DNA of 64,000 nucleotides from Clostridiales bacterium (GCA_018333995.1 JAGXSG010000008.1:59290-123289); one strand, 5' to 3'. Positions 17,768 through 30,071 are shown, counted from the stretch's first letter. A program made the numbers and translations. The notes: a model not told the origin generated them from the sequence alone.

Positions 17768-19894
17768 TTAGCGATGATCGCAGTCGTGCGCGTACGCAGA
17801 GATGAGCGGTTCTAGAGTGTTTTCCCATGTGAACCTCGCCGCTTGTCGAATCCCGTAGGCAGAGACTTCCTTCGCGAGTTTGGGATCTGACAGCAGGGAT
17901 TCTACGCGCATGGCGAGGGCGTCGATATCTCCCGGCGCGAAGAGGGCTTCGGGATGTACGAACTCGGGAATGGCTCCGACGGCGGCTCCGATGACGGGTG
18001 ATCCAACCGCCGAGGCTTCGAGGGCCACAAGCGAGAATCCTTCAGCGTGCGATGGCACAACGACGATGTCGCTTGTTCTCATGAGGGCCAGCACGTCACT
18101 GTGGGGTAGACGTCCGGTGAAAACCGTGCGCCGAGCGAGTCCGAGTGCGGCAGCTTGCTGGGCGCGTTCCTCTATGCCGCAATCGCCCACCATCGTCAGC
18201 GATACAGGACGAACCCTGGGATCGGCAAGTGCGACGAGCAGATCGGATGCACCCTTCTCGACCGTCATTCGGCCGACGAAAAGGACATGCGGAAGTAGCC
18301 GTGGCTCAGGTGATGGGCGTTTTAGGGAATCAAACACGGCAGCGTCGATTCCGTCGTGCACCACATGGATGCACATAGGCGGTGCTCCCGGAAGTGAGCG
18401 CACATCGTGAGCGATCGCTTCCGAAACACAGATGAGAGGCTCGCACCTGCGCAAAGCGGCGAGGGTTACCATCCGCCAGAAGACGGACTTGTGGGCAAGA
18501 GAGATATCGCTTCCACGCATCGTGAGCGCAGTGCGGATTCGAGGAGCGGCCACTGAGCACACGAGTCCTGTCGGTGCCCACTGCGCATGCAGGATGTCGC
18601 TGTCGCGAGCGGCACGGCGAGCGGCACGAGCCAAACCCGCGACAAAGAATGGCGCCGTCAGCCAGAGGGCGGGAGCTCGGCGGAGAGCGCCCGGAATCCC
18701 GGTTTCTGAGTAGGCGAGACGCTCCCACCGTTGTGGCAGGTAGCGAAAACGGTTGACCTCAACGCCATCCATCTCCTCGACAACCGGCAAGCCCGGTGCG
18801 TGCGGGGCATGCACGCTGACGTTCACGGATTTCCTGACCAGGTGTATGGCCAGCTGGTGAACGATCCTTCCGGTAAAGTCCCCTGAATTGCGTGGGAACA
18901 CTGTTGTGACCAGTGCGACACTCAGCGGTTCCCCGTTGTATGCACGATTCATTCTTCCGTCGGCGACCGGTGATGCTCTTGTTAGAATCAGTGCGGCTCC
19001 CACCAATGCTGGCGTGAGCACCATCCCCAAGTGAACGATGGCTATCTGGGTCGCGGCTTGATCGTCCACTCCCAGACCGACAAGCACGGCGACTAGCGTG
19101 AATTGACTGAGGCCCAATCCGGCAAGTGAAATTGGGAGGAGATTCGCAAGCGTCATGATCGCGCCGCTCATGATCGTGTGCGCGATCGGGATATCTGAGC
19201 CCAGTGAGTGCGCGACCGTGTGGATAGCGGCAAACGACACCAGCCATCCCAGTACGGAGATCGCGACAACCCCCACAAGGCGACTCGGGCGCACGTGCGT
19301 AGCCTCCGCGATCATGCGCGGCGTCACATCAGCCTGCATGCTTCCCACGGCTCTGATGGCGAGGCGCCACGGCACCACAGAGGGCTTGATAATCGGGATC
19401 AACGCCACTATACCTAGCAGGATCGCCAGCGCTCCGACGAGATGAAGACCGCTAGCGAACGCCGAAGGAGCCGCTACGACAGCGAGGGCAGGAAGCGAAG
19501 TAAGCTTGTCGATCATCGTCGCCGGAACCAGGTACTCGGGCTTGCCATGCGTTCGGCACGCGAAGTGAGCTTTGACAAGCTCACCGGTACCACTTGGCAT
19601 CACGAGGGAAGCGGCACTGCCTATGAGGGTGAGGGCAAGTGAATCTGAGCTCGATATGAGTCTCCTGGAACGATTCACGACAAGCGCATAACTCACCGAC
19701 CGCAACATCACCGCCAGCCAGAATACGGCCAGAGCTAACAGTAGCTCGATGAGACTCGTTTGTCTGATCGCGTGACTAAAAGAGCCCCAGTCGACGCGCG
19801 AGACGAGGACCGAGACCAAGAGCATCGAGACTGCGGCTCGCGTCATAAACACGGCGATGTCGCGCGTCCTCGACGGGTTCTCGATGTCCGTCAT
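17768..19894 (-). CDS. fusion protein: N-terminal flippase-like (lysyl-PG synthase TM region/UPF0104-type) multi-TM domain plus C-terminal GT4/GT1 glycosyltransferase
   Basis: About 330 aa with ~8 TM helices, then a GT-B domain with FVGRMTVEKG and SHAEGFSLVALEASAVGSPVIG (EX7E-type). ATG overlaps the upstream stop (ATGA at 19891-19894). Confidence 0.8.
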   Translation of the reverse strand: MTDIENPSRTRDIAVFMTRAAVSMLLVSVLVSRVDWGSFSHAIRQTSLIELLLALAVFWLAVMLRSVSYALVVNRSRRLISSSDSLALTLIGSAASLVMPSGTGELVKAHFACRTHGKPEYLVPATMIDKLTSLPALAVVAAPSAFASGLHLVGALAILLGIVALIPIIKPSVVPWRLAIRAVGSMQADVTPRMIAEATHVRPSRLVGVVAISVLGWLVSFAAIHTVAHSLGSDIPIAHTIMSGAIMTLANLLPISLAGLGLSQFTLVAVLVGLGVDDQAATQIAIVHLGMVLTPALVGAALILTRASPVADGRMNRAYNGEPLSVALVTTVFPRNSGDFTGRIVHQLAIHLVRKSVNVSVHAPHAPGLPVVEEMDGVEVNRFRYLPQRWERLAYSETGIPGALRRAPALWLTAPFFVAGLARAARRAARDSDILHAQWAPTGLVCSVAAPRIRTALTMRGSDISLAHKSVFWRMVTLAALRRCEPLICVSEAIAHDVRSLPGAPPMCIHVVHDGIDAAVFDSLKRPSPEPRLLPHVLFVGRMTVEKGASDLLVALADPRVRPVSLTMVGDCGIEERAQQAAALGLARRTVFTGRLPHSDVLALMRTSDIVVVPSHAEGFSLVALEASAVGSPVIGAAVGAIPEFVHPEALFAPGDIDALAMRVESLLSDPKLAKEVSAYGIRQAARFTWENTLEPLISAYAHDCDHR

Positions 19895-22218
19895 CTCGAC
19901 TCCAGCGCGTGAGAGAACACCGCTTGTACCAGCTCTTGTTGAAATGGATCCTGGTTCACCGCGGCATGCCAGACCAGGTTGTAGCCTATGAAGTAGACGC
20001 GTCCTTCGCCCACGGTCAACATGCTTACAAGTGGTTTGCCGTCAGCGGTCGCCAACACCTCGGGGGAGTATGAGCTAGGAAGTGGCTCATAGGCCGCTCC
20101 ATACCAAGCACCTCCGGCCTCATCGACGAATTGAATCGAGGCACCCAACGTCGCAGAGTCTTCAACGGCTAGCGAAGGCAAAATCCGCACTCTCGCCTCT
20201 CTCGCCAGAGCTTCGCGTCTGACGGTCATGCCAAAGATGGCTGTGTCCCTGATCTGATACGACAGATCGCCCAGGTTGCCGGAAGCGTCGAGGATGAGCG
20301 TCCCGCCGTCCTCCACGTATTCGCGGAGGATTTGCTCACCACGTGCGCGGTCACGCCACTTCACTCCGAAGAGAGCTACGACATCGTATTCCTGCAGCTC
20401 GGTGAGGGTCGGGTCGTCTATAAACGCCGTGCCTTCCCATCCGTAGCGCCCCATGTCGAAATCGAGGTAGTACCGGTATTCCGTGAGTTCTTCAAGATAG
20501 CGCTCCCATCCCACGCCAAGGTAGAGGATCCTTGGTCGTGACGGCGCGGAATCTTGTGTGCGTTTTAGCACGCGAACCGTGTCGACCCCTTCGACCTCGA
20601 CTCTTCGTATCTCAGAGAATCCAGCGAAGTCTTGGCCCTTAAGGGTTACGTAGTAGTCCGCTGCGGATTTGTCGAGCTGATGCCGGAAAGCGTCCGGATC
20701 TCTGAAAAAGGGCATCGCACGCGCTGGGAGCCTTCCATCCCATGCTGTCATCGGCCACAGATCGGAGTAGATGACACTCCCCTCATTCGCCCCCGAAGCG
20801 AGCAACGACTCCGCAGTGGAGCGTGATGCCGCTACATATGGGTTCGGGGATTCGGGGATCCGCTGCATGACGACGGCAAGCGAGATGCATGACACGCTCA
20901 CAAGCAAGACGGTGGTTGCGGTACCGAGCGCTCGAGATGAACGTTCGCCCAACGACCCTAAGATCCGTCCTGACTCCCCGGTGAGATTATGTATACCGCG
21001 GTGCCAGCCGAGGATGGTCAGGAAGATGATCGTGGGTGCCATCATTATAAAGTATCGAGAAACCTGGATGTTCTGATGGCCATGGAAATCCAGATAGCAC
21101 AGTAGCCATGTAAGCAGAGTAGCGTCGAGTGCACCAGCACTGGAAACGCGCCCGTCTTCGGCGCGCGGTCCCAGCTGACTCCAGACCGCAATGACGGCTA
21201 TGACGATACTCACCTGCCGTGGAATCAGACCCGCATCGAGAACCTGCGCCAAGACTGCCGACGTGACGCCGAGGACGGCGATCATCAAGGGGGCGATTCT
21301 TAGCGGACTTCTCCGGAAGTACGTTGAGACCGAGGTCAACAGCCCCACCGCCCCTCCGAGGAGGACCAGGACCGGTATCAGGGTGACGGAATCATGGCCG
21401 AGGAACCGAGTCACGTTCTCCGCGTACCAGACGGCGTTTGCCGCCGCGGGCTCGCCGACGCCTGGGGCGCTCACGGACTCAGCCACCTGAAACGCGATCG
21501 CGAACGGGAAGAGGCTGTCACCGAAGCGTGATGCGTAAAACAGTCCCGCAGGCAGATACGTCACCACGGCGACACCGATAGCATGGGTCAGCATGCGCGC
21601 CTGAACGAAAGGACGCCACCTTAGCATCAGCCATGCGAAGGCGGGAATGGCAACAAGTATGGCCGTGTACCGAGTCATCACAGCGATCACGTATAACGCC
21701 GCCGCAATAAGGTAGTAACGTGGATCGTCGTCGGCCGCACGAATGAGAGCCAGTAGCATCCACAGCCCGATGGCCACAGAGGGAAAATCCGTATAGCCGC
21801 TGCCTAGATACTCCCAGAGAGGGGTCACGGACAGGACCATCGGGACCACCGCGATGGCGATTTTGCTATCTGTGCGGCGTCTCACGAGGAGATACAGCGC
21901 TACCACTCCCGATATCGAGAGCGCGCCATCGATCCACTGGATGACCGATTCATGCATTGGTGCACCGAGGCTAAACGCGAGCGCGGTAAGCAGCGACAAG
22001 AAGGGGGGTCGATGAAGTTCAGAGTACCCAAAGCCCGACTGTGCGAACTCCGCCGCGTTACAGAGGAACGCATACGTGTCCCACCCTGGCCCAGACAAGA
22101 TCGCATGAGGGAGCCTGTAGGCTACGACCATCGTCGTGATCGCAAAGACCAGTCCTACCTGGAACAACGCCGCGCGTCGGTGCTGCTTGGGGACGACGGC
22201 AGTTCCTCCCACCCTCAT
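19891..22218 (-). CDS. large polytopic membrane protein, GT-C/ArnT-PMT-like N-terminus plus ~320-aa extracytoplasmic C-terminal domain
   Basis: About 12 predicted TM helices followed by a soluble domain. ATG 22218 sits 1 nt after the GT2 stop (TAA 22220-22222). The ORF-track start at 22248 is TTG. Position and size match the membrane protein I recall accompanying XrtG-type exosortases. Confidence 0.6.
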   Translation of the reverse strand: MRVGGTAVVPKQHRRAALFQVGLVFAITTMVVAYRLPHAILSGPGWDTYAFLCNAAEFAQSGFGYSELHRPPFLSLLTALAFSLGAPMHESVIQWIDGALSISGVVALYLLVRRRTDSKIAIAVVPMVLSVTPLWEYLGSGYTDFPSVAIGLWMLLALIRAADDDPRYYLIAAALYVIAVMTRYTAILVAIPAFAWLMLRWRPFVQARMLTHAIGVAVVTYLPAGLFYASRFGDSLFPFAIAFQVAESVSAPGVGEPAAANAVWYAENVTRFLGHDSVTLIPVLVLLGGAVGLLTSVSTYFRRSPLRIAPLMIAVLGVTSAVLAQVLDAGLIPRQVSIVIAVIAVWSQLGPRAEDGRVSSAGALDATLLTWLLCYLDFHGHQNIQVSRYFIMMAPTIIFLTILGWHRGIHNLTGESGRILGSLGERSSRALGTATTVLLVSVSCISLAVVMQRIPESPNPYVAASRSTAESLLASGANEGSVIYSDLWPMTAWDGRLPARAMPFFRDPDAFRHQLDKSAADYYVTLKGQDFAGFSEIRRVEVEGVDTVRVLKRTQDSAPSRPRILYLGVGWERYLEELTEYRYYLDFDMGRYGWEGTAFIDDPTLTELQEYDVVALFGVKWRDRARGEQILREYVEDGGTLILDASGNLGDLSYQIRDTAIFGMTVRREALAREARVRILPSLAVEDSATLGASIQFVDEAGGAWYGAAYEPLPSSYSPEVLATADGKPLVSMLTVGEGRVYFIGYNLVWHAAVNQDPFQQELVQAVFSHALESR

Positions 22219-22219
22219 C

Positions 22220-23788
22220 TTATGCCGATCGCTTCCACAGTGCCTCAAGACGCCCAGCCAGTACGATGACGGTGACCAGAAGCGGACCCAGCACGGAGAG
22301 CGTCACTCTGCCCATGCGCAGTACCGCGGTGGTAAGCGAGCTGGCCACCATCGTGACGAACTCGATCGAGCGCACACGCATGAGACGAAGTCCGTCCTGC
22401 ATTCCGCCAACCGGTCCTTGGATGGTCCATTGTGGCTCCTCCATGAGAGTGACGAGGAAGCCCGAAAAACGGAAGTGAAACACGATGAATCTGAAGAGAG
22501 GCAAGAACAGCAGCGTCCACCCGCACTGTTCGATGCGTCCGCGCGTATGCTCGTCGGACATTGCGAACACGGTTGTGGTGTTGACGGCCTCGATCGCAAC
22601 GTAGAACGCGTACATCCCTGCGAGCGCCATGCCGATGACACTCCAGGAGTACCCAAACATCGGAAAGAAGAGGATGAGTGGTGCCCAGATGAGTCGCGGG
22701 AACGCGAGCGTGTGGTCGAGCAAGAGCGTCTTCGGGAGAGAGCGTCGCGAGAAGGCACCATGCTTGTGCGTGCCAATGATCTCCTCGTGCAAACCGCAGA
22801 CCTCGAGTTGGCCGCGCGTCCAACGGGCGCGTTGCGCGTACAGTTCGTCCCAGGTCACCACTGGTTCCAGGTAGATCTTCGCGTCCTCGGCAAAGCCAAT
22901 GGTGACGTTGTTTCGATGAAGTGCGAACGTCAGGCACGTGTCCTCTGAGACTGTGGTGTTCGAGTAGCATGGTCCGCAGGGGAGAATGTCGCGCCGGAAC
23001 GCCGAGCACGCGCCCGCGAGTGTGAACATGGTTCCGGTGAGCGCTTGTGCCCGGCGGCCGAGGTCAAAAGAAGATAGAAACTCCAGGAACTGCGCCTTTG
23101 CGAGGAATCGTTCCATCGCCGTCAGAGTGCGGGGCACTATGTGGCCCTCTTCGTCGAGCACCAGACGGCCGTGTTCATCACGAGACTCGAGAACGTCCCA
23201 GTCTATTTCGATGCTTCCTGTCAGTGCGCCGAGCTTCGGATCGCGCACGAACGCCGCCGCGATATTGCGTATCGCCATCGGATGGAGCACGACGTCGCTA
23301 TCGATGTTGATGACTATCTCTCCCGAGCTCGCGTCGATGCCCGCGTTGAGCGCTTCGGACTTGCCGCCGCGCTGGCGCCGGATAAGGGTGATGGTGCCGC
23401 GGAATGGGCCCACTCGGATAGCTCGCCCGCGCAGGCGGAACGCGTCACCGTTCTCGGTGCTTCCGCCGTTGGCGTGGTGCTCTACCCGTTCCGGCGTGCC
23501 GTCGTCACTTCCATCATCAACGACGATGACCTCGAACTTCTCGTGCGGGTAGGCCTGTGCTTTGATCGAGGTTAGGCAACGGTCAATGACAGCGGCTTCG
23601 TTGTACGCCGGGACGATCAGCGAGACTGTCGGCAACTCGTCGTCGGGCACTTCTCGGCGGCGGGCAAGACCTCGTTCACGTGTCTTGACCACCACCAAGC
23701 GGCTAACGGCGTCCACCCCGTCGATGAGCACCGGCGTTATCAGCCACACGCCCCAGACGAGCATGAACACTAGGAGGCTGTCCATCAT
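22220..23788 (-). CDS. processive GT2 glycosyltransferase (PgaC/cellulose-synthase-like)
   Basis: LIVPAYNEA, VVDDGSDDGT, DSD and QRARWTRGQ (Q-x-x-RW) motifs flanked by TM helices. ATG 23788 follows GGAGG and overlaps the upstream TGA. The ORF-track start at 24385 is an artefactual extension. Confidence 0.87.
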   Translation of the reverse strand: MMDSLLVFMLVWGVWLITPVLIDGVDAVSRLVVVKTRERGLARRREVPDDELPTVSLIVPAYNEAAVIDRCLTSIKAQAYPHEKFEVIVVDDGSDDGTPERVEHHANGGSTENGDAFRLRGRAIRVGPFRGTITLIRRQRGGKSEALNAGIDASSGEIVINIDSDVVLHPMAIRNIAAAFVRDPKLGALTGSIEIDWDVLESRDEHGRLVLDEEGHIVPRTLTAMERFLAKAQFLEFLSSFDLGRRAQALTGTMFTLAGACSAFRRDILPCGPCYSNTTVSEDTCLTFALHRNNVTIGFAEDAKIYLEPVVTWDELYAQRARWTRGQLEVCGLHEEIIGTHKHGAFSRRSLPKTLLLDHTLAFPRLIWAPLILFFPMFGYSWSVIGMALAGMYAFYVAIEAVNTTTVFAMSDEHTRGRIEQCGWTLLFLPLFRFIVFHFRFSGFLVTLMEEPQWTIQGPVGGMQDGLRLMRVRSIEFVTMVASSLTTAVLRMGRVTLSVLGPLLVTVIVLAGRLEALWKRSA

Positions 23789-24378
23789 GCCTCCTTGAGG
23801 TTGCCTGAGACGATCGTGATCGTCGGCCGCGTCACAAGGAACCAGTAGATCGCCACGGTGGCGGCGAAGAAGAACAACCGTCCAAACACGGCGTGCGCCG
23901 GATACACCCACGAGGTGCCGAGTGCGTTGATGATGCCCACGATTAGCAGGATGCGCAGGAGATTGACCACCCACGTCGCGGCCACGCCCGCGAGCACCAT
24001 CCAGAGCTTGTTCCCCGGCCGGAACGCTGGGTAGAACGCCACAAGCGCGGTGAACGCGAGCGTCTCGAGCAGAGCCGAGCACTCGATGCCGATGTCGAAG
24101 ATCGCCCAACCCGTGTGGTTTGGGATGGCGAGTCCCGAGGTGCCGAGATGGGAGAGTTCGATTCCGAGCAGTCCCGCAAGGGCGATCACCTGCTGTGCCT
24201 GTGCGTACTCCACAGCGGTGTCGAGTCCGAAGGTTCGAAGTGCAGAGATGCCGAGTAGCACGAAGCCGAGTGCGCCCGTGATGTAGAAGACCAGCCAGTG
24301 ACGAGTGCTCCAGAGCCGCCAGGTGAGCAGCGCCCACACGGCGGTCGCGAACAGGAGCATGTAGGGCGACATGATCAT
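23785..24378 (-). CDS. exosortase/archaeosortase-family transpeptidase-like membrane protein (XrtG-like by size and neighbourhood)
   Basis: 197 aa, ~6 TM helices. Carries the family's Cys/Arg/His triad in its usual contexts: DIGIECSALLE, NLLRILLIV, YPAHAVFGRLFF. ATG 24378 overlaps the TGA of the surface-protein gene. Confidence 0.72.
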   Translation of the reverse strand: MIMSPYMLLFATAVWALLTWRLWSTRHWLVFYITGALGFVLLGISALRTFGLDTAVEYAQAQQVIALAGLLGIELSHLGTSGLAIPNHTGWAIFDIGIECSALLETLAFTALVAFYPAFRPGNKLWMVLAGVAATWVVNLLRILLIVGIINALGTSWVYPAHAVFGRLFFFAATVAIYWFLVTRPTITIVSGNLKEA

Positions 24379-26939
24379 GGCGCACTTGCCTTCGCGAGCG
24401 CCGGTGTCATCCGGTGCCGGGAGTGCCACATGAAGACGACTCCGATGAGCAACGTGAGAGCGAAAAGGGGCCAGCCCAGTGCGGGAATCGAGTAGAACTC
24501 TGTCGTCCGGGTGTCGATCAGCATGCCCGACGTGGTCCTCCACGTGGCTGTGACCCGGTAGGTTCCTTGGTTGGGAAATCCAGTGTTGGAGATAGCCCAG
24601 GGCTGCGGCTCGGTCCACGTGGCACCGGCAGGCACCGTGATGCCGGTTGTCGTGCGCGTGCTCACTGGCGCCGAGCCGTCGTAGACACGACTCGCGCCAG
24701 AGGAGTCGATGAAGAGGTCTCCAGCTCCGAACACGCCGTTTCCGTCGGTGTCCCACCAGATGACGTACGTCATCGTCGAACCTGAGATCGACTGGGCACC
24801 GTTGTTGGCGGCTGTCGATGAGACGTGCACCATGTCTCCCAAACCCGGCGCATTGCTAGCGCTCAGGGACGTGATACGGGCTGCTGGCGACACGTTAAAG
24901 GTGACCCGCGTGATCTCGGCGTTGTTTGAGGAGTTGAGGAGCACAAGGTTCCATGTGCCATGCGTGGCATCCGCTGGCAGCGTGTAAAAGCTGTGCGCTG
25001 TCTGCAAGGTGTTGACGCCCACGGGGAGCGAGGTGTGGACGACTGTGCCGCTCGCGTTGATCCAGCGGAAGCGTACCTGTGAAAAGCCGGTGAGTCCCAT
25101 GCCACGCGCGTACACGGTGTCGCCTGGGTTGAAATTCGTGGCCACACTGCCGAAGCCGGGGCCATCGTACGTAGCAAGCCTGCGCACCCGTGTGGTGTCG
25201 GTCACGGACGCCGAGAATGATCCGTGTGAGGCGGTCACCGTCATGATGTCGGTCGCGGCTTCACTCGCTCCCGCAGGTATCTGCACTCGGGCCACGATGT
25301 CGACGCTCGCGCCGTACGGTCCGAGCGTCACCGAGCTGATCGGAGTCACTCCGTCAGCCGCAAAAAGGCTCACCGGCCAGCCCGAGGAAGACCGTACGGA
25401 GAGGTTGATTGAGCGGGCGGCCGCGGCGTTGTTCGTGACGCGGTGCGTGTAGGAAACGGCTGTGCCAGGACCGCCGACGGACTCGAGATTAGGCGTGATC
25501 TCCAACTCGGGGCGTACGGTTGTGGCGTCCTGGGCCGCACCGAGGATCGTCGGGTCTGTGGCCAGGACAGCCCGTACCGCGGTGACATCCTGAGTACCAT
25601 GAGCCGTCCCAGCCGGGACGCGCACCCGTGCGACCACGTCGACCGAGGCGCCCGCGGCAAGGGTGAGTGAGTTGACTGGGGTGATAGCGTCTGAGAGGTA
25701 GAGCTCGACCGGCCAGCCGAGTGACGAGGTTGCGGAGAGGTTCACGACCGCCGAAGCACCGGTGTTGTTCGCGACGGTGTGCCTGTAGTCGATCGCCGCT
25801 CCGGAGTGGATCGAAGCGGAGTGGTTCGGCGTGAGGGTAAGTGCGCCCGCGACAGTGTGGGCTGTGGCGCGCGCGACGACGCTGGCGTGCGTGGTCGATG
25901 TCACAGCGAGTGCCGTCGTTGCGGCGACACCTTGTGCGGTGCCCAACGGGATCGCGACGCGCAAATTGACGGGTACCGAACTTCCCGGGGCAAGTGTCAC
26001 GGAAGTCGCGGGTGCCCCAGCCACCCACGTGCTCGCGTTCCATCCAGCCAGAGAGGATGTTCCAAGCGTATACGTCTGCGGAAGGTTGCCGCTGTTGGTG
26101 ATGGTGTACGAGTGAGTGACGACCGTGCCAGGCACCCCGCCTGCGGTCGTGAGCGCTGGTGAGAGCGACACAGCGGGTCGTGCGAAGGAAAGCCCTCCGC
26201 TCGGACCGGCGTTGTCCTCGATGTGTGTGGGTGATTGCGATCCATTGCCCACCGCGAACTGGATCGAGATCGGGCTGCCAGCGGGCACTCCCAGCGCGGC
26301 CCACGAGACAGACGCCTCGAATCGCAGGCCCGAGCTGTCCATAGCGCCACTGTATACGGCACCGGGCACACGGTTCTGGCCTGGACGGGCTTGGCCCGGC
26401 ATCGTGTGGCCGTCACCGCGCATCACGTCGCTAGATGAAGAGTTGTGGGCACTGTAGTAGACGACGTTACTCGAATTAGGATTCGGCTGGTAACCAGAGT
26501 TGGAGAATCCCATGATGGCGACGACATCACCGCTGCGCATGACGCCGTCGCCGTCGCGGTCGATGTAGGCGAACATCGTGACAGCACGGGTCCCTGAGGT
26601 GGTGCGGCGCCAGAACAAGTACAGATTCTGCTCGTCCCACGTGGCAGCCGTGAGATCCAAGTCGCGGTCAGGTTGGTCCGGAGTGTCCGGATCCCCAGGT
26701 CCGGTGGTGTCGAGGACGGCGTTGTCCGCGTCGAGGAACACGCCGTCCCAATCGGTCATGGTGCCGTCGATGGTGATACGCGCTGAAGTGAGGGCTTGGG
26801 ATCCGGTGGGTGCGAGCAGGAAGGATATCAACAGCAACGCTGTGAGCGCGCACGTTGTGATAGAGCGAGGGCGTGTGCGACGTATCGCGGACTCTGTTCG
26901 CCCCAAGTGCTCGCGAGCATGCGTGGATGAGCCGTTCAT
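24375..26939 (-). CDS. 854-aa secreted repeat-rich surface protein with a C-terminal hydrophobic/basic anchor
   Basis: Signal peptide ALTALLLISFLLAPTGSQA. At least three ~105-aa repeats of a DUF11/NEW3/CARDB-like module (Y.H.V.N....[ST].L...S..GW...L......I..V.L....S..V..RV..P.G). C-terminus IPALGWPLFALTLLIGVVFMWHSRHR. Confidence 0.8.
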   Translation of the reverse strand: MNGSSTHAREHLGRTESAIRRTRPRSITTCALTALLLISFLLAPTGSQALTSARITIDGTMTDWDGVFLDADNAVLDTTGPGDPDTPDQPDRDLDLTAATWDEQNLYLFWRRTTSGTRAVTMFAYIDRDGDGVMRSGDVVAIMGFSNSGYQPNPNSSNVVYYSAHNSSSSDVMRGDGHTMPGQARPGQNRVPGAVYSGAMDSSGLRFEASVSWAALGVPAGSPISIQFAVGNGSQSPTHIEDNAGPSGGLSFARPAVSLSPALTTAGGVPGTVVTHSYTITNSGNLPQTYTLGTSSLAGWNASTWVAGAPATSVTLAPGSSVPVNLRVAIPLGTAQGVAATTALAVTSTTHASVVARATAHTVAGALTLTPNHSASIHSGAAIDYRHTVANNTGASAVVNLSATSSLGWPVELYLSDAITPVNSLTLAAGASVDVVARVRVPAGTAHGTQDVTAVRAVLATDPTILGAAQDATTVRPELEITPNLESVGGPGTAVSYTHRVTNNAAAARSINLSVRSSSGWPVSLFAADGVTPISSVTLGPYGASVDIVARVQIPAGASEAATDIMTVTASHGSFSASVTDTTRVRRLATYDGPGFGSVATNFNPGDTVYARGMGLTGFSQVRFRWINASGTVVHTSLPVGVNTLQTAHSFYTLPADATHGTWNLVLLNSSNNAEITRVTFNVSPAARITSLSASNAPGLGDMVHVSSTAANNGAQSISGSTMTYVIWWDTDGNGVFGAGDLFIDSSGASRVYDGSAPVSTRTTTGITVPAGATWTEPQPWAISNTGFPNQGTYRVTATWRTTSGMLIDTRTTEFYSIPALGWPLFALTLLIGVVFMWHSRHRMTPALAKASAP

Positions 26940-27118
26940 CGTGCGGTCAGTCCCTTGTCTGGGTGACGGTGCCGGTCACAATCCCACGGCGCGGTTCATC
27001 GGCGGATGTGGAGATGTGTCCTTGCTCACACTATCGGCATCCTCTAGGGGCCGGTGTACGGTCAAGCGCGCGAGTGGTCACATTCGGTGTTTACCGGCGT
27101 GAATTCTAGTACCTATCT

Positions 27119-27147
27119 GACGAACGGTATCTTCATCCGCCGAACGG
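27119..27147 (+). promoter_or_regulatory. pair of direct 9-bp boxes GACGAACGG / GCCGAACGG (candidate LytTR operator)
   Basis: Boxes at 27119-27127 and 27139-27147 (20 bp start-to-start). They lie in the divergent region between the surface-protein operon and the LytTR regulator gene. A TATACT -10-like hexamer sits at 27191-27196. Confidence 0.45.
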
Positions 27148-27246
27148 TGATTTTGCTCTGACGGATGTGCGTGTGAGGAGTTTCATGCGGTATACTGACG
27201 GTTCAGACAGGTTGACGAGCGGCACGCGTTCCGCTCGGCGAGTGAC

Positions 27247-28005
27247 GTGGCGGTGGCAATGACTGATCAAGTCGGTGTACTCGTCATCGACGACGACGAG
27301 TCGATCGTCGAGATGATCCGGATGGGCCTTGAAGCCGATGGCATGCGTGTCTTTTCGGCAGGTGACGGCGCGGAAGGCATCGAGGTCCTCAACCGGGAGC
27401 TCATCGACGTTGTCGTGCTCGATATCATGATGCCGCGGGTCGATGGCTGGATGGCGCTCATGGAGATCCGCAACAACCCCGCAACTGCCGACACGCCTGT
27501 GATCATGCTTACGGCCAAGACTCAGGACCTCGCGAAGATCCTCGCGTTCAAGCAGGGCGTGCAGCAGTACGTCACCAAACCGTTCAACATTCTCGAGCTG
27601 TCCGCGCGCGTAGAGTCGCTGGCGAAGGGCCGCCGTAGACAGGTCCGCGACGCAGGGCGGGGCGGTGAGGGCGATTTTCGCAAACTCGCTGTGCGCAAGG
27701 GTGGACGGACGGTGCTGCTTTCGATCGACGATGTCGTCTTCCTTTCGGCTCGCAATAAGTCCACGTACGCGCACACGTTCGAAAACCAGTACCTCGTGGA
27801 CATGACGCTTGGCGAGCTTGAAGCGCGGATTGGCCCAGACGCGTTTGTACGGGTGCATCGCAGCTACATGGTGAACCTCAACAAGATCAAAGAGATCGTG
27901 CGGGCCGAGGGTGCGTACGTGGTAATCGCGACAGATCGTGATGAGACGCAGATTCCGGTGGCGAGGCGGCAGGTGCGCCAGTTCCGTGAGGCGGTAGGGA
28001 TTTGA
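27247..28005 (+). CDS. LytTR-family DNA-binding response regulator (no adjacent histidine kinase)
   Basis: Receiver domain (VLVIDDDES, VVVLDIMMPRVDG, MLTAK) plus C-terminal LytTR domain (LLSIDDVVFLSA...FVRVHRSYMVNLNKIKEI). Start may be ATG 27259. Confidence 0.88.
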   Translation: MAVAMTDQVGVLVIDDDESIVEMIRMGLEADGMRVFSAGDGAEGIEVLNRELIDVVVLDIMMPRVDGWMALMEIRNNPATADTPVIMLTAKTQDLAKILAFKQGVQQYVTKPFNILELSARVESLAKGRRRQVRDAGRGGEGDFRKLAVRKGGRTVLLSIDDVVFLSARNKSTYAHTFENQYLVDMTLGELEARIGPDAFVRVHRSYMVNLNKIKEIVRAEGAYVVIATDRDETQIPVARRQVRQFREAVGI

Positions 28006-29057
28006 TGGGTGCTCATGGTTCGCGTCGATTGGTGGTCGCGTGTGTCGCCGCGGTCCTGTGTGCGGCAGCGCTCGTCCCGGGCTCCGCGTACGCCGAGCGG
28101 ACGATCGCGCTCAGCACCGGTACGGTGGAGCTCTCACTTGCGCCAGGAGGTTCAGCGTCCGAGACGATCAGCGTCGCGAACACGGGCACTGAGCCGCTCA
28201 AGGCGTTGCTCTACACGAGCGACGTCACTTACGACGCACAAGGGCAGCCAACGTACGTGCGGCCGACCGGCGAAGCGGGAGAGTTCTTGCGCAGTCCGGC
28301 GTCGTGGATGGTGGTGCGTGCGCCGGACATGACGAAGATCATCGCCAACACTCCGTACATCGAGCTTGAGCCCGGACAGGAGATCGAGGTCGATTTCGAC
28401 CTCACCGTTCCTGCCAACGCCGCCCCGGGCGACTACAACGCGATCATCTTCTTTGAAATGTTTGAAACGGCAGGCACCGAGGGCACGGCGTCTCGCATCT
28501 CCGGGCGGATCGGTGCTCGTGTGGTACTGCGCGTGATAGGCGACATCGTCGACCGGATCGATGTGGCGCCGTTCTCGGCGCGCTCGTTTGTGATCGGTGA
28601 CGTGATTCCGTACTCGTTCCGCGTGGTCAACGAGGGAAACATAGACAAGCGCTACGTCCCGGAACTCGTCGTGCTCGATGGTAGCGAGGCCGAGCGCATG
28701 CGCTCGGTTGTGGAGACGGAGGCGATCGTCTACGCGCAAGGCCAGCGTGAGTACGTGGGCGGGCTCGCGCTGGAAAATGCGGGCTTTGGCAGGTTTACGC
28801 TCCGGGTCGAGATCGCGCATGAGCGGGATACCGGAGACGCGGGGGCGGTGGTGTCAGAACGCCTGCACAAGGACCGGACATTCTTTGTCATTCCGCTGTG
28901 GTTTGCGATCGCAGTCATCCTTGGAGTCGGATTTCCGCTCCTGTGGCTGTCGTGGCGCGCGAGTGTGAACAGCGCCGCACGCAAGCAGGTGGCACGGGAG
29001 CAAGTACGCTCCGAGAAGCGTCAACGCTTGGCCGAGGAGCGCGAGCAGTCGTTGTAG
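28005..29057 (+). CDS. secreted, C-terminally TM-anchored surface protein, DUF916/DUF3324-like
   Basis: ATG overlaps the regulator stop (TGATG). Signal peptide ...VPGSAYA. PGDYNAIIFFE-type motif. C-terminal FFVIPLWFAIAVILGVGFPLLWLSWR TM segment followed by a charged tail. Confidence 0.5.
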   Translation: MGAHGSRRLVVACVAAVLCAAALVPGSAYAERTIALSTGTVELSLAPGGSASETISVANTGTEPLKALLYTSDVTYDAQGQPTYVRPTGEAGEFLRSPASWMVVRAPDMTKIIANTPYIELEPGQEIEVDFDLTVPANAAPGDYNAIIFFEMFETAGTEGTASRISGRIGARVVLRVIGDIVDRIDVAPFSARSFVIGDVIPYSFRVVNEGNIDKRYVPELVVLDGSEAERMRSVVETEAIVYAQGQREYVGGLALENAGFGRFTLRVEIAHERDTGDAGAVVSERLHKDRTFFVIPLWFAIAVILGVGFPLLWLSWRASVNSAARKQVAREQVRSEKRQRLAEEREQSL

Positions 29058-29079: not shown

Positions 29080-29394
29080 CTACCTCGGAGTGACCGGCAC
29101 GAGGGTGTACTCGGTGAGGTCTCCGGTTTCCACGAGCGCGCCCGCAGCGCCTGTACTCCCTCCGCTCGCGTAGACGATCTCTGTTGAGCCGCACGCCGCT
29201 CGTGCGATGCCGGTAAGTTCCCACTGGGTGTTGGAGCGGATCACGAGTCCGTTATCGACGGAAGTGGCGCTCACGATCGGTGCCATTTCGAACGATACCG
29301 AGACGCCGGTGCCGACCGCGAACCGAGGAAGCGCGAGCGCGCTAATGACGAGGGCCGTGGCCGCCGTCACTCCAATCACACGTCCCGCTCTCAC
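29080..29394 (-). CDS. small secreted protein, WxL-like (RSNTQWEL motif)
   Basis: GTG 29394 is 6 nt after AGGAGG. Signal-like N-terminus VIGVTAATALVISALALP. Shares the L.(V/I)RSN..W.(L/F) motif with the 143-aa neighbour. Confidence 0.45.
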   Translation of the reverse strand: MRAGRVIGVTAATALVISALALPRFAVGTGVSVSFEMAPIVSATSVDNGLVIRSNTQWELTGIARAACGSTEIVYASGGSTGAAGALVETGDLTEYTLVPVTPR

Positions 29395-29455
29395 CGGTGC
29401 ACCTCCTGTCAGCGGTTCTGACAGGTAGATCGGAGACGAAAGGCTACAATAGTGT

Positions 29456-29514
29456 GACGAACGGCCTCTATGGAGGGACAAACGGACGAACGGTTGCAGA
29501 AGGGCGACGAATGG
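29456..29514 (+). promoter_or_regulatory. four 9-bp boxes forming two 21-bp-phased pairs (candidate LytTR operator)
   Basis: GACGAACGG 29456-29464, GACAAACGG 29477-29485, GACGAACGG 29485-29493, GACGAATGG 29506-29514. They lie 62-120 bp upstream of the minus-strand gene starting at 29394 and read CCGTTCGTC in the gene direction. Confidence 0.5.
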
Positions 29515-29639: not shown

Positions 29640-30071
29640 CTAGTTCTGGACGGCGGTGTAGACGTAGGTCGCCGTGTAGGCACCGACAGGCAGTGAGTAC
29701 GCGGCGTCGCTACCCAGGTTGAGCGTGTAGCTCGTGGTGATCGGAGTCACTCCGCGGGTCTGCAAGCCGTTTGCGACGCTGACAGTGTCGCTCATGAAGG
29801 TACCGAACAGCGCATTCGAATAGACCGGGGTCTGCTGGGTGAAGGTCCACGGCATGTTAGAACGTACACGCAGGGACGAGCCCACAGTGGCGACGGGGGT
29901 TGTGAGCGGATCTGCTGTGAGGGTGAGAGCGGCCGGTCCTTGAAGCGTGAATTCGAACGCGGGGGTGACGTTAGCGGTTACCACGACGGTACGGTCGGTA
30001 GCGAGAGCGAATCCCACGACGCCGAACGTCAGGGCCGCGATCACGATTGCGATCATGGCGGTCCTCTTCAT
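29640..30071 (-). CDS. small secreted protein, WxL-like (RSNMPWTF motif)
   Basis: ATG preceded by GAGGAGG. Signal peptide MKRTAMIAIVIAALTFGVVGFALA. All-beta-looking, T/V/A-rich. C-terminus YTATYVYTAVQN. Confidence 0.55.
   Translation of the reverse strand: MKRTAMIAIVIAALTFGVVGFALATDRTVVVTANVTPAFEFTLQGPAALTLTADPLTTPVATVGSSLRVRSNMPWTFTQQTPVYSNALFGTFMSDTVSVANGLQTRGVTPITTSYTLNLGSDAAYSLPVGAYTATYVYTAVQN

What the first reader, a model, noticed from the sequence alone, without database searches (positions are those of the whole stretch)
24378..24500. Shared C-terminal signature F-[FY]-x-I-P...18 hydrophobic residues...W/S-W/H-S/R-R in two neighbouring surface proteins: possible new sorting signal
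Seen:
- The 854-aa protein ends ...TEFYSIPALGWPLFALTLLIGVVFMWHSRHRMTPALAKASAP.
- The DUF916-like protein (coding 28875-28967) has ...RTFFVIPLWFAIAVILGVGFPLLWLSWRASV...
- Both have an aromatic pair, x-I-P, exactly 18 mostly hydrophobic residues, then a Trp/basic cluster.

Established: this tripartite form (short motif, TM helix, basic patch) is the form of PEP-CTERM and PGF-CTERM signals recognised by exosortases and archaeosortases.

Inference: [FY]xIP may be the recognition motif of the adjacent exosortase-like enzyme. Two examples are few, and the DUF916-like protein continues for 29 charged residues past the TM, unlike classic signals.
Basis: inference. Interest (0 to 1): 0.6.

Follow-up and report, generated by a model that had tools for sequence, protein, structure and literature searches.

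The report
Sorting tail of an XrtG-like exosortase substrate
The tail of the 854-residue surface protein is very likely the cleavage and sorting signal for the exosortase gene that follows it, as a diverged, uncatalogued version of the Gram-positive XrtG system, while the look-alike tail of the neighbouring protein belongs to an unrelated family and is not part of that system.

Summary
Both peptide strings are present exactly as described. They turn out to be two different things.

**The 854-aa protein.** Its tail (24378-24500, minus strand) has a motif (EFYSIPALGWPLF), a transmembrane (TM) helix and a basic cluster. The gene overlaps by ATGA a 197-aa XrtG-like exosortase, followed by a TIGR03111-like glycosyltransferase. 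This is the gene order of the annotated Firmicu-CTERM/XrtG system.
- In 54 related genome loci, 45 encode such a tail just upstream of the exosortase.
- In 6 more loci the surface protein is fused in frame to the exosortase.
- A tail profile built without the window scores the window tail at 36-40 bits. The best non-adjacent ORF tail scores 10.
- The conserved core is [IV]-P-[AT]-[LM]-G-W. F[FY]xIP is conserved only within the Coriobacteriia clade.
- No curated model reaches its cut-off on the exosortase, the glycosyltransferase or the tail.

**The DUF916-like protein.** It is a WxLIP-like two-domain protein.
- Its FFVIP is the family-wide [VFI]-W-[VIL]-[VIL]-P junction between the last strand and the helix.
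- It scores below zero against the tail profile.
- It lies near the exosortase in only 2 of the related loci.

**Verdict.** This is a new variant of a known kind of system. No processing has been shown experimentally.

The parts
24375..26939 (-). Gene for the 854-aa secreted surface protein, the putative dedicated substrate of the XrtG-like exosortase.
   Evidence: ORF. It carries Ig-like domain hits (FixG_C, NPCBM_assoc, DUF7507, MG2). Orthologues lie upstream of the XrtG-like gene in 20 loci.
26793..26939 (-). N-terminal signal-peptide-like region (residues 1-49): basic stretch, hydrophobic core LTALLLISFLLAP, then GSQA.
   Evidence: Read directly from the translation. No signal-peptide predictor was run.
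26259..26783 (-). N-terminal globular domain (residues about 53-227; ITIDGxxxDW ... YIDRDGDG ... WAALG), homologous to the domain of Firmicu-CTERM-type XrtG substrates.
   Evidence: hhalign of Coriobacteriia N-terminal domains against canonical and Chloroflexota substrate domains gives probability 96%, E 4.7e-9. It does not reach TIGR04145 at E<=0.01.
24378..24500 (-). C-terminal tripartite tail, which is the region of the finding: motif, transmembrane helix, basic cluster, and 11 further residues.
   Evidence: Translation. A profile of 45 cognate tails, built without the window, scores it at 35.9-39.9 bits.
24462..24500 (-). Signature motif EFYSIPALGWPLF (residues 814-826). The core IPALGW is at 24471-24488.
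   Evidence: Mean majority-residue frequency among 13 Coriobacteriia orthologues is 0.91. The preceding domain scores 0.72, the rest of the transmembrane helix 0.46, and the residues after it 0.36. Coordinates.
24426..24473 (-). Hydrophobic transmembrane segment WPLFALTLLIGVVFMW (residues 823-838).
   Evidence: It aligns without gaps to the hydrophobic segment of all cognate tails.
24411..24425 (-). Basic cluster HSRHR (residues 839-843). Most orthologues have RRR here.
23785..24378 (-). Gene for the 197-aa XrtG-like exosortase. Its ATG overlaps the TGA of the 854-aa gene (ATGA at 24375-24378).
   Evidence: TIGR04178 exosortase/archaeosortase signature scores 53.1 bits (cut-off 23). TIGR03110 XrtG is the best full-length hit at 76.2 bits, below its cut-off of 102.75. 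The protein is 100% identical to P0001, also 197 aa. The AlphaFold2 model has pLDDT 90.7.
24079..24081 (-). Codon for Cys100 in the invariant ECS motif, the putative catalytic nucleophile. Arg142 is at 23953-23955 and His162 at 23893-23895.
   Evidence: These residues are invariant in 27 homologues. They are also invariant in an alignment that includes three RefSeq-annotated XrtG proteins. Coordinates.
22220..23788 (-). Gene for a 522-aa GT2 glycosyltransferase related to the XrtG-associated glycosyltransferase and to PgaC/IcaA-type synthases.
   Evidence: TIGR03111 scores 259.8 bits (cut-off 363.95) and PgaC_IcaA scores 129 bits. The gene lies directly downstream of the XrtG-like gene in 56 of 57 loci.
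19891..22248 (-). Gene for a 785-aa polytopic membrane protein with PMT_2 and PTPS_related domains. It sits in the position of the second XrtG-associated glycosyltransferase or PTPS-related protein.
   Evidence: Pfam PF13231 scores 52.5 bits and PF10131 scores 29.7 bits. It is conserved in the Coriobacteriia-type loci. The canonical loci have a TIGR03766 or PTPS-related protein in this position.
17768..19894 (-). Gene for a 708-aa fusion of LPG_synthase_TM and GT4 domains, the last gene of the same-strand cluster. Its association with the system is looser.
   Evidence: Pfam hits. A full-length match occurs in the same orientation only in L008 and L015, and partial matches occur in 10 other loci.
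28002..29057 (+). The second protein of the finding, a 351-aa WxLIP-like (DUF916-like) membrane-anchored protein. It was examined and judged not to be part of the exosortase system.
   Evidence: 1,229 representative homologues at E<=1e-3. The family motif is [VFI]-W-[VIL]-[VIL]-P followed by a transmembrane helix. The AlphaFold2 model has pLDDT 94.1, with strand 283-297 and helix 299-350. Foldseek matches Enterococcus faecium WxLIP 9i1y and 9i25 at E about 2e-10. The tail scores -3.5 and -1.5 bits against the tail profiles.

Best explanation
**What it is.** The segment encodes the C-terminal sorting signal of a dedicated substrate of the XrtG-like exosortase encoded by the next gene. The system is a diverged relative of the Gram-positive Firmicu-CTERM/XrtG system.

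**Proposed sequence of events (all inferred; nothing here has been shown experimentally for any XrtG).**
1. The 854-aa protein is exported through its N-terminal signal peptide.
2. It is held in the membrane by the tail helix, with the basic cluster on the cytoplasmic side.
3. The motif ...F-Y-S-I-P-A-L-G-W-P-L-F sits at the outer face of the membrane.
4. There the polytopic exosortase recognises it. The exosortase carries the conserved residues Cys100, Arg142 and His162.
5. By analogy with archaeosortase A and sortase A, the Cys cleaves at or near the motif and forms a thioester with the passenger.
6. The enzyme then passes the passenger to a nucleophile in the envelope. The helix and basic tail are discarded.

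**The acceptor.** It is unknown. A GT2 synthase is conserved directly downstream throughout the family, and in the Coriobacteriia-type loci a GT-C-like membrane protein follows it. Their conservation suggests that the product is linked to, or works together with, a locally made polysaccharide.

**The neighbouring protein.** The tail of the WxLIP-like protein is a permanent membrane anchor. Its FFVIP is the end of the last beta-strand plus a junction proline.
For: **Gene order.** The RefSeq-annotated XrtG loci read Firmicu-CTERM protein, xrtG, TIGR03111 glycosyltransferase, then a PTPS-type or TIGR03766 protein (PMC12854382). The window has the same order.

**From sortase to tail.**
- Of 54 genome loci holding an XrtG-like gene, 45 have an alignable tail on the ORF immediately upstream.
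- 6 loci have an in-frame fusion of substrate and exosortase. The fused ORFs are 1154-1232 aa in five of the loci (889 aa in L018, where the upstream reading frame is uncertain). Their exosortase parts are only 53-85% identical to each other, so the fusion has been kept through divergence.
- The other 3 loci have a nearby or frameshifted candidate.

**From tail to sortase.** A DNA-pattern scan of metagenome contigs gave 5 true tails, and all 5 are followed by an XrtG-like gene.

**Specificity of the tail.** The profile separates cognate tails (at least 16.7 bits) from all 11,247 other ORF tails (at most 10.3 bits). The window tail scores 35.9 bits.

**Conservation.**
- Among Coriobacteriia orthologues the motif is the conservation peak, at 0.91.
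- The motif persists on passengers that BLAST cannot link to the window protein, for example the Tepidiforma type ...CSGAPTMGW.
- The motif persists in the fusions, where the substrate's own helix is replaced by the first helix of the exosortase.

**Enzyme and substrate relationships.**
- ECS (Cys100), Asn139, Arg142 and His162 are shared with annotated XrtG proteins.
- The N-terminal domain of the substrate is homologous to Firmicu-CTERM-type domains at 96% probability.
- One Chloroflexota substrate (L044) matches TIGR04145 end to end at 23.7 bits, which bridges the two tail classes.

**Other points.**
- The ATGA overlap of the two genes suggests translational coupling.
- The criteria for a dedicated sorting system in Haft's 2023 preprint (10.1101/2023.06.07.544157) are met.
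- The thioester and amine-acceptor model for the homologous ArtA is described in PMC7157517.
Against: - No cleavage, modification or acceptor has been shown for this or any XrtG system.
- None of the curated models that define the XrtG system reaches its cut-off: TIGR03110 at 76.2 against 102.75, TIGR03111 at 259.8 against 363.95, and TIGR04145 with no hit.
- A profile of canonical Firmicu-CTERM tails gives the window tail 0.0 bits.
- Only one tail per locus was seen, and no whole genome could be scanned, so the count of one substrate per genome is inferred.
- Adjacency and conservation would also be expected if the tail only docked onto the membrane complex without being cleaved.
Confidence: 0.8

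Rival explanations
1. The tail is an ordinary, uncleaved C-terminal membrane anchor. Its conserved motif serves to dock the surface protein onto the complex of exosortase-like protein and glycosyltransferase, or onto the membrane interface, without any proteolysis or transfer.
For: No processing has been demonstrated. The fusions show that a permanent covalent link between the passenger and the membrane protein is tolerated. Interfacial Trp residues and a positive cluster are generic features of transmembrane helices.
Against: The partner retains the exosortase signature and its invariant Cys, Arg and His, which a pure docking role would not require. The conservation peak is a short motif at the start of the helix, not the helix itself. 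The tail meets the criteria for a dedicated sorting signal.
Confidence: 0.1
2. One reading: F[FY]xIP followed by a helix and a basic patch is one shared signal. On this view both the 854-aa protein and the DUF916-like protein are substrates of the adjacent exosortase.
For: F[FY].IP occurs only in these two ORFs of the window, against 0.14 expected. Both occurrences lie directly in front of a C-terminal helix. A profile-profile alignment puts FYSIP over the family's fWviP, with probability 79.7% when the helices are included.
Against: - That probability falls to 3.7% once the helices are trimmed.
- The DUF916-like tails score between -3.5 and +1.3 bits against the tail profiles.
- They lack the [AT]-L-G-W core.
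- In the family, a median of 48 residues (up to 248) follow the helix.
- FFVI lies inside a confidently predicted beta-strand.
- The family is large (1,229 representatives), and its gene accompanies the exosortase in only 2 of the related loci.
Confidence: 0.04
3. The tail is a variant LPXTG-type signal ([IV]-P-x-[LM]-G resembles L-P-x-T-G) that is processed by a classical sortase, not by the exosortase.
For: It has the same tripartite form and a loosely similar motif. Canonical Firmicu-CTERM tails give weak LPXTG_anchor hits of 11.9-14 bits, below the cut-off of 15.9.
Against: The window tail gives no LPXTG_anchor hit even at E<=10. The position of the scissile Thr is occupied by Leu or Met. 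The conserved partner is the exosortase, by adjacency and by fusion. The window was not searched for a sortase gene.
Confidence: 0.03

Closest known systems
XrtG / Firmicu-CTERM system of Bacillota (NCBIfam TIGR03110, TIGR04145, TIGR03111, TIGR03766)
   Same: - The gene order is the same: substrate, then a roughly 200-aa exosortase, then a GT2 glycosyltransferase, then a PTPS-type membrane protein (against 6, 7).
- There is one adjacent substrate per locus.
- ECS, Asn, Arg and His are shared.
- TIGR03110 and TIGR03111 are the best full-length hits.
- The N-terminal domain of the substrate is homologous.
- Every host named in a locus title is, from general knowledge, a lineage without an outer membrane.
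   Different: - All curated cut-offs are missed. Eight tested members of this clade score 72-92.5 bits on TIGR03110, against 194-201 bits for annotated XrtG proteins.
- The tail motif is [IV]-P-[AT]-[LM]-G-W, whereas canonical tails read T-A-G-A-S-S-G-A-W or T-G-G-S-T-G-G. Neither tail profile detects the other class: 0.0 bits in one direction and at most 7.8 bits in the other.
- The locus titles name Coriobacteriia, Chloroflexota, some Bacillota and one Saccharibacteria MAG.
- In the window protein about 550 residues of Ig-like repeats separate the domain from the tail.
- Natural substrate-enzyme fusions exist.
- No QueD-like gene is present in the window.
PEP-CTERM / exosortase A (XrtA, EpsH)
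   Same: The enzymes belong to the same superfamily (TIGR04178 signature met). The signal is tripartite. The system is linked to glycosyltransferase and exopolysaccharide genes (PMC1569441, listed).
   Different: There is no PEP motif and no PEP-CTERM hit. There is one substrate per locus instead of many per genome. The enzyme is much smaller (197 aa). The hosts are monoderm.
PGF-CTERM / archaeosortase A (ArtA) of Haloferax volcanii
   Same: The enzyme family is homologous. The signal is tripartite. It provides the working model of a Cys thioester intermediate resolved by an amine acceptor (PMC7157517).
   Different: It is archaeal, has many substrates and uses a lipid acceptor. Nothing comparable has been shown for this system.
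IPTL-CTERM sorting domain (TIGR04174)
   Same: The motif looks similar ([IV]-P-T-L before the helix). One Chloroflexota tail (L044) gives a weak hit of 12.3 bits.
   Different: That hit is below the cut-off of 20.5 bits. The window tail gives no hit at all. From memory, and not checked here, this domain occurs in Proteobacteria and has no assigned enzyme.
WxL-interacting protein (WxLIP; Pfam WxLIP_PGBD PF06030 = DUF916, and WxLIP_HBD PF11797), for the second protein only
   Same: Both have two Ig-like domains followed by a C-terminal helix. Foldseek matches Enterococcus faecium WxLIP 9i1y and 9i25 at E about 2e-10 with TM-score 0.49-0.54. Distant homologues give weak to significant PF06030 hits.
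   Different: The window protein itself has no PF06030 hit at E<=0.01. No recognisable WxL partner was identified next to it.

Membership tests
Exosortase/archaeosortase superfamily (197-aa protein) | Match to the TIGR04178 signature model above its cut-off. | tested here: met
   53.1 bits against a cut-off of 23.
Exosortase/archaeosortase superfamily (197-aa protein) | Conserved Cys, Arg and His in a polytopic membrane protein. | tested here: met
   C100, R142 and H162 are invariant in 27 homologues. They are shared with three annotated XrtG proteins. The AlphaFold2 model is largely helical, with pLDDT 90.7.
XrtG proper (TIGR03110) | Score at or above the curated cut-off of 102.75 bits. | tested here: not met
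   The window protein scores 76.2 bits. Eight other clade members score 72.3-92.5 bits. Annotated XrtG proteins score 193.6-200.9 bits.
XrtG system | Adjacent TIGR03111-family glycosyltransferase. | tested here: inconclusive
   TIGR03111 is the best hit at 259.8 bits, below its cut-off of 363.95. The adjacency is conserved in 56 of 57 loci.
XrtG system | A single substrate gene directly upstream of the exosortase, with a C-terminal tripartite tail. | tested here: met
   Of the 54 genome loci, 45 are adjacent and 6 are fused.
Firmicu-CTERM domain (TIGR04145), for the 854-aa protein | Score at or above the curated cut-off of 50 bits. | tested here: not met
   No hit at E<=0.01 on the full protein, at E<=0.1 on its first 280 residues, or at E<=10 on the tail. 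Canonical proteins score 94-154 bits.
Firmicu-CTERM domain (TIGR04145), for the 854-aa protein | Homology of the globular domain that precedes the tail. | tested here: met
   hhalign gives probability 96%, E 4.7e-9. In the window protein the domain is separated from the tail by Ig-like repeats.
Firmicu-CTERM domain (TIGR04145), for the 854-aa protein | Canonical tail motif (TAG-A/T-S-S/T-G-A-W or TGGSTGG). | tested here: not met
   A canonical-tail profile scores the window tail at 0.0 bits, against 58-77 bits for canonical tails.
Tripartite C-terminal sorting signal, dedicated type (criteria in 10.1101/2023.06.07.544157) | Located close to the C-terminus, with a motif of at least 3 near-invariant residues, then a hydrophobic helix, then a basic cluster of 2-5 residues. 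| tested here: met
   The motif starts 41 residues from the end. Gly is conserved in at least 90% of the 39 aligned tails, and Pro and Trp are the majority (consensus) residues. Within the Coriobacteriia clade S-I-P-x-L-G-W-P is near-invariant. The helix is 16 residues and the basic cluster is HSRHR. Criteria taken.
Tripartite C-terminal sorting signal, dedicated type | [quoted passage not shown] | tested here: met
Tripartite C-terminal sorting signal, dedicated type | N-terminal signal peptide on the target. | tested here: inconclusive
   A signal-peptide-like N-terminus can be read by eye in the window protein and in several others. No predictor was run.
Tripartite C-terminal sorting signal, many-target type | Multiple occurrences in one genome on unrelated proteins. 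| not testable with these tools
   There is one instance in the 64-kb window and one per locus. Whole genomes could not be scanned. The tail-only database search returned nothing.
Same sorting signal, tested on the DUF916-like protein | Match to the tail profile, location at the C-terminus, and co-occurrence with the enzyme. | tested here: not met
   The tail scores -3.5 and -1.5 bits. 28 residues follow the helix in the window protein, and a median of 48 in the family. The gene lies near the exosortase in only 2 loci.
WxLIP (DUF916/DUF3324), for the 351-aa protein | Pfam PF06030 or PF11797 above the gathering score. | tested here: not met
   No hit at E<=0.01 for the window protein. Its homologue P0266 reaches 29.4 bits, above the 27.3 gathering score, and others are weaker.
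WxLIP (DUF916/DUF3324), for the 351-aa protein | Two-domain WxLIP fold with a C-terminal membrane helix. | tested here: met
   The AlphaFold2 model has pLDDT 94.1. Foldseek matches 9i1y and 9i25 at E about 2e-10. RbmA and pilus chaperones score similarly, so the fold match is not exclusive to WxLIP.

The most novel reading that the evidence does not exclude
**Proposal.** This clade of small XrtG-like exosortases, found in Coriobacteriia, Chloroflexota and some Bacillota, is a one-enzyme, one-substrate conjugation machine. It would cut its substrate at the P-[AT]-[LM]-G-W motif and attach the passenger covalently to the polysaccharide made by the co-encoded GT2 synthase.

**What the fusions would add.** The six natural substrate-enzyme fusions would show that an exosortase can act in cis on its own N-terminal extension, with a single turnover per molecule. 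That would give a self-contained construct for determining, for the first time, the cleavage site and the acceptor of a bacterial exosortase.
Probability: 0.2. Interest if true: 0.7.

Novelty: new variant of a known kind. Interest (0 to 1): 0.45.

Why it matters
**An untested system.** In the literature searched here XrtG appears only as a genome annotation. One paper mentions it, as an expression change, and no cleavage site or acceptor is reported there.

**What these results add.**
- The system is wider than its curated models. A sister clade in Coriobacteriia, Chloroflexota and some Bacillota is mostly labelled 'hypothetical protein' by NCBI.
- That clade uses a distinct tail motif which no curated CTERM model detects.
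- The in-frame fusions of substrate and enzyme give independent gene-fusion evidence for the pairing of enzyme and substrate.
- The fusions also offer a simple experiment: express one polypeptide and look for Cys-dependent self-cleavage.
- A cultured organism with a complete genome, Tepidiforma flava YIM 72310, carries the system (L023).

**For annotation.** A new tail model and a relaxed or separate exosortase model would name several hundred proteins.

**A caution for motif spotting.** The resemblance between the two tails in the window shows that a strand-Pro-helix junction can mimic a sorting motif.

Tried and rejected
1. **Tail-only database search.** The second, with a 43-column alignment of 39 tails, returned no protein at E<=10 against 5.8 billion sequences. 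It probably failed because the profile is short and hydrophobic. That used one of the three capped searches and left the question of other tails elsewhere in the genome open.
2. **Curated CTERM models on eight tails at E<=10.** Only sub-threshold, mutually inconsistent hits appeared (PGAP-CTERM, GlyGly-CTERM, IPTL-CTERM, Loki-CTERM, MYXO-CTERM), so none was adopted.
3. **Shared ancestry as an explanation for F[FY]xIP.** I tested whether the last Ig-like domains of the two proteins are homologous. hhalign gave 79.7% probability with the helices included and 3.7% without them. This was rejected as unproven.
4. **BLASTP of the 854-aa protein against two canonical Firmicu-CTERM proteins.** Only the ITIDGxxxDW stretch aligned weakly, at E 0.03-0.1. 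Profile-profile comparison was needed.
5. **Longer XrtG-like database hits (231-260 aa).** I checked them for partial fusions. They are C-terminal extensions, not fusions.
6. **Solved structures.** There is no PDB sequence relative and no fold relative of the exosortase. The AlphaFold database library was not available.
7. **Structure prediction as a docking test.** The tool returns no coordinates, so it could not show whether the motif docks at Cys100. That test was not attempted.
8. **Haft et al. 2012 (PMC3256604).** The paper is not held. Statements about the original XrtG description rest on RefSeq annotation and on memory.
9. **The 785-aa protein against canonical PTPS-related and TIGR03766 proteins.** BLAST found no match. 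Only Pfam links them.

Full report
**1. The observation**

The finding's coordinates are exact. Window 24378-24500 on the minus strand encodes EFYSIPALGWPLFALTLLIGVVFMWHSRHRMTPALAKASAP, followed by a stop codon. This is the end of an 854-aa ORF at 24375-26939. Window 28875-28967 on the plus strand encodes RTFFVIPLWFAIAVILGVGFPLLWLSWRASV inside a 351-aa ORF at 28002-29057, and 28 mostly charged residues follow it.

The pattern F[FY].IP occurs only in these two places among all six-frame ORFs of the window (79,209 residues). Composition predicts 0.14 occurrences. The literal observation therefore holds and is not trivial, although the pattern was chosen after the fact.

**2. The neighbourhood**

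Five genes lie on the minus strand in this order:
- the 854-aa protein;
- a 197-aa protein at 23785-24378;
- a 522-aa GT2 glycosyltransferase at 22220-23788;
- a 785-aa membrane protein with PMT_2 and PTPS_related domains at 19891-22248;
- a 708-aa fusion of LPG_synthase_TM and GT4 domains at 17768-19894.

The 197-aa protein passes the exosortase/archaeosortase signature model (TIGR04178, 53.1 bits, cut-off 23). Its best full-length family is XrtG (TIGR03110) at 76.2 bits, below the cut-off of 102.75. The GT2 protein is closest to the XrtG-associated glycosyltransferase (TIGR03111) at 259.8 bits, below its cut-off of 363.95.

The stop codon of the 854-aa gene overlaps the start codon of the exosortase gene (ATGA at 24375-24378).

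**3. What is already known**

XrtG systems are annotated in Bacillota. A 2026 paper on Lactiplantibacillus plantarum lists 'a complete Exosortase G system' made of a Firmicu-CTERM protein, XrtG and two associated glycosyltransferases (PMC12854382).

A tblastn search of plasmid records with the window exosortase found four records carrying an annotated xrtG gene. I read the annotation of three of them, in Aneurinibacillus, Lactococcus lactis pBV60 and [Eubacterium] eligens. The order there is Firmicu-CTERM protein, xrtG, TIGR03111 glycosyltransferase, a QueD-like gene, then a TIGR03766 or PTPS-related protein.

The window has the same order. The 854-aa protein sits where the Firmicu-CTERM substrate sits.

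**4. From the sortase to the tail**

An alignment of 27 homologues of the window exosortase retrieved 54 loci from species-representative genomes. Their titles name MAGs of Coriobacteriia and other Actinomycetota, Chloroflexota (including the cultured Tepidiforma flava), a few Bacillota and one Saccharibacteria.

In 45 loci the ORF ending just upstream of the exosortase gene carries a tail that aligns without gaps from the motif through the helix to the basic cluster. The main forms are:
- Coriobacteriia: T-[EQ]-F-[YF]-S-I-P-[AT]-L-G-W-P-L-F ... W-R-R-R;
- Dehalococcoidia and Tepidiforma: C-S-G-A-[PS]-T-M-G-W-x-L-F ... R-K;
- Anaerolineales: [YF]-[FI]-V-P-T-L-G-W;
- other lineages: W-x-P-[IV]-P-A-M-G.

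The shared core is [IV]-P-[AT]-[LM]-G-W. Gly is conserved in at least 90% of tails.

A profile built from these 45 tails, without the window, scored every ORF tail of the window and of all loci (11,247 tails). All cognate tails score at least 16.7 bits and the window tail scores 35.9 bits. The best other tail scores 10.3 bits. That one, in L019, reads KIPTLDSYLF before a helix and lies 430 bp from the exosortase gene, so it is probably a substrate too.

**5. Natural fusions**

In six loci (L011, L013, L014, L016, L017, L018) no separate tail was found. There the surface protein runs in frame into the exosortase:

...TTQFFSVPTLGE-IVAKLTAPS-LPLLVLMGIVWVGALAAL-RRRRRWLSFYALGALG...

- The motif is kept.
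- The substrate's own helix and basic cluster are replaced by the first helix of the enzyme and its RRRW loop.
- The fused ORFs are 1154-1232 aa, except in L018, where the upstream frame is uncertain.
- The exosortase parts are only 53-85% identical to each other, so the fusion has survived considerable divergence.

This is gene-fusion evidence that the two proteins work together. It is also topologically sensible: the N-terminus of the enzyme must face outward, as the passenger does.

**6. From the tail to the sortase**

A degenerate DNA pattern for F-[YF]-S-I-P-[AT]-L-G-W-P found six places in metagenome contigs. Five are orthologous tails, and each is followed by an XrtG-like gene. The sixth is a chance match with no helix.

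**7. Is the motif more than conservation between orthologues?**

- Among 13 Coriobacteriia orthologues the mean majority-residue frequency is 0.91 for EFYSIPALGWPLF. It is 0.72 for the preceding domain, 0.46 for the rest of the helix and 0.36 after the helix.
- Passengers differ. tblastn links the window protein only to the Coriobacteriia-type loci and L020.
- Tepidiforma-type substrates have an unrelated N-terminus.
- The fused clade lacks the ITIDG domain.
- In L044 and L049 a PTPS_related membrane protein carries the substrate domain and tail.

**8. Relation to the canonical substrate**

TIGR04145 is a 191-position model that covers a whole domain plus the tail. It scores 154.5 and 94.4 bits on the two annotated proteins. 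It gives no hit on the window protein.

Three results nevertheless link the two:
- The window protein begins, after its signal-peptide-like region, with ITIDGTMTDWDG. Canonical substrates have ITIDGNFDDWTD or IVIDGEFADWDA, and several Chloroflexota and Bacillota substrates have the same opening.
- A profile-profile comparison of the Coriobacteriia N-terminal domains with these domains gives 96% probability, E 4.7e-9.
- L044 matches TIGR04145 end to end at 23.7 bits.

The tails themselves are distinct. Twenty-eight further canonical proteins show G-Q-[QE]-W-[IV]-x-T-A-G-[AT]-S-[ST]-G-A-W or T-G-[GA]-S-T-G-G before the helix. A profile of these gives the window tail 0.0 bits, against 58-77 bits for canonical tails. 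The window-type profile gives canonical tails at most 7.8 bits. No curated CTERM model reaches its cut-off on any of the eight tails tested.

**9. The enzyme**

- Cys100 (in ECS), Asn139, Arg142 and His162 are invariant in the clade. They are shared with annotated XrtG proteins.
- Eight further members of the clade, from five lineages, all have TIGR03110 as their best family at 72-92.5 bits. None reaches the cut-off. This is a sister group to curated XrtG.
- AlphaFold2 gives a confident model (pLDDT 90.7) that is mostly helical, with a small three-strand sheet before the Cys.
- No solved structure resembles it by sequence or by fold.

**10. The second protein**

An exhaustive search found 1,229 representative homologues of the 351-aa protein at E<=1e-3. 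The evidence that its tail is a different thing is as follows.
- Among the best 150 homologues, 92 have [FVI]-[WYF]-[VIL]-[IVL]-P directly before a hydrophobic segment. A median of 48 residues, and up to 248, follow the helix.
The window's FFVIP is a minority spelling of a family motif.
- AlphaFold2 (pLDDT 94.1) shows two beta-sandwich domains. The last strand covers residues 283-297 and ends in ...TFFVI. Pro298 forms the junction, and one long helix runs from 299 to 350.
- Foldseek's top PDB matches include Enterococcus faecium WxLIP (9i1y, 9i25; E about 2e-10). RbmA and pilus chaperones score similarly.
- Distant homologues give weak to significant Pfam WxLIP_PGBD hits.
- The tails of this protein and its two nearby orthologues score between -3.5 and +1.3 bits against the tail profiles.
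- The gene was found in only 2 loci (L002, L006), although about a dozen other Coriobacteriia-type loci hold roughly 10 kb upstream of the exosortase gene. In both cases it sits beside the LytTR regulator.

A profile-profile alignment does place FYSIP over fWviP at 79.7% probability. This falls to 3.7% when the helices are removed. A common origin for the two junctions is therefore not shown.

**11. Mechanism**

*Shown here:*
- the anatomy of the tail;
- its specific and reciprocal association with the exosortase gene;
- the fusions;
- the conserved Cys, Arg and His;
- the shared gene order and domain homology with annotated XrtG systems.

*Inferred by analogy* with ArtA (PMC7157517) and with the criteria for dedicated sorting systems (10.1101/2023.06.07.544157):
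- export of the substrate and its retention by the tail helix;
- recognition of the motif at the outer leaflet;
- attack by Cys100, release of the helix and basic tail, and transfer of the passenger to an acceptor.

The acceptor is unknown. The constant GT2 synthase, which is PgaC/IcaA-like (129 bits), makes a link to a locally made polysaccharide plausible. In the Coriobacteriia-type loci a GT-C-like protein follows the synthase as well. This link remains speculative. The canonical locus on pBV60 sits behind GGDEF and EAL genes, which suggests a role in a biofilm matrix.

**12. Verdict**

The system is a diverged and so far uncurated variant of the known XrtG/Firmicu-CTERM kind. It has its own tail class and natural substrate-enzyme fusions. 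Searches of the held literature found no description of an exosortase in Coriobacteriia and nothing relevant for Chloroflexota. Nothing about processing has been tested experimentally.

Noticed in passing
L011 7121-10585, L013 797-4270, L014 7076-10558, L016 6857-10555, L017 7016-10600, L018 7874-10543: Single ORFs in which the surface protein is fused in frame to the XrtG-like exosortase. The motif FFSVPTLGE is kept, and the substrate's own helix is replaced by the first helix of the enzyme. The fused clade also has a different N-terminal domain (APVYSYFPSAS...) in place of ITIDGxxxDW.
   Followed up: partly
L044 6792-9950 and L049 6723-9962: In two Chloroflexota MAGs the gene upstream of the exosortase encodes a protein of more than 1,050 aa. 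In L044 a PTPS_related membrane protein (PF10131, 388 bits) is fused to a Firmicu-CTERM-like domain and tail. L049 carries the same C-terminal domain and tail, but its N-terminal part was not scanned against Pfam. This joins two components of the system in one polypeptide.
   Followed up: partly
window 28002-29057 (+) and homologues P0121-P0270: The WxLIP-like family has a deeply conserved [VFI]-W-[VIL]-[VIL]-P-L-W junction before its membrane helix. Several distant members (for example P0199, P0215, P0222, P0226, P0238, P0245, P0247, P0248) end with a second hydrophobic helix at the extreme C-terminus. The role of the junction motif is unknown.
   Followed up: partly
window 27247-28005 (+) and 28002-29057 (+): A gene for a REC+LytTR response regulator overlaps the start of the WxLIP-like gene by 4 nt. 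The pair is conserved in L002 and L006. No histidine kinase was seen beside it in the region examined. The regulator gene is transcribed divergently from the 854-aa gene.
   Followed up: partly
window 27115-27148: The direct repeat ATCTGACGAACGGT / ATCCGCCGAACGGT, spaced 20 nt start to start, lies in the intergenic region between the 854-aa gene and the LytTR regulator gene. It could be a LytTR-type binding site. Two-copy repeats of this length are often chance.
   Followed up: no
window 29080-29481 (-) and 29640-30071 (-): Two small ORFs (133 and 143 aa) lie next to the WxLIP-like gene and have no Pfam or NCBIfam hit. The 143-aa product has a signal-peptide-like N-terminus. They could be partners of the WxLIP-like protein, as WxL proteins are in enterococci. 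This was not tested.
   Followed up: no
L056 4413-6098 (Lactococcus lactis plasmid pBV60): The canonical XrtG operon on this conjugative plasmid is directly preceded by a diguanylate cyclase gene and an EAL-domain gene. This suggests control by c-di-GMP and a role in a biofilm matrix.
   Followed up: no
L055 7331-7981 (Aneurinibacillus plasmid): The gene directly upstream of an annotated xrtG is labelled 'hypothetical protein' and misses TIGR04145. Yet it ends in ...NTVPSFTVYGIGVATIGAGFILAKRRKKGGVC, a tripartite tail. Even within Bacillota the curated substrate model is therefore incomplete.
   Followed up: partly
window 23785-24378 (protein P0001): The identical database protein is labelled as coming from a 'Clostridiales bacterium' MAG and named 'hypothetical protein'. 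All close relatives of this gene cluster come from MAGs labelled Coriobacteriia or Actinomycetota, and the window has about 63% G+C. The taxonomic label may be wrong.
   Followed up: no
L050 6352-8913: In one Bacillota MAG a second ORF of 853 aa, upstream of the cognate substrate gene, also ends in a tail with a hydrophobic helix and a basic cluster (GPAPTAGISAIVSALTGLLVLGYAVTRRGS). It scores only 4.3 bits against the tail profile. It may be a second, diverged substrate.
   Followed up: no
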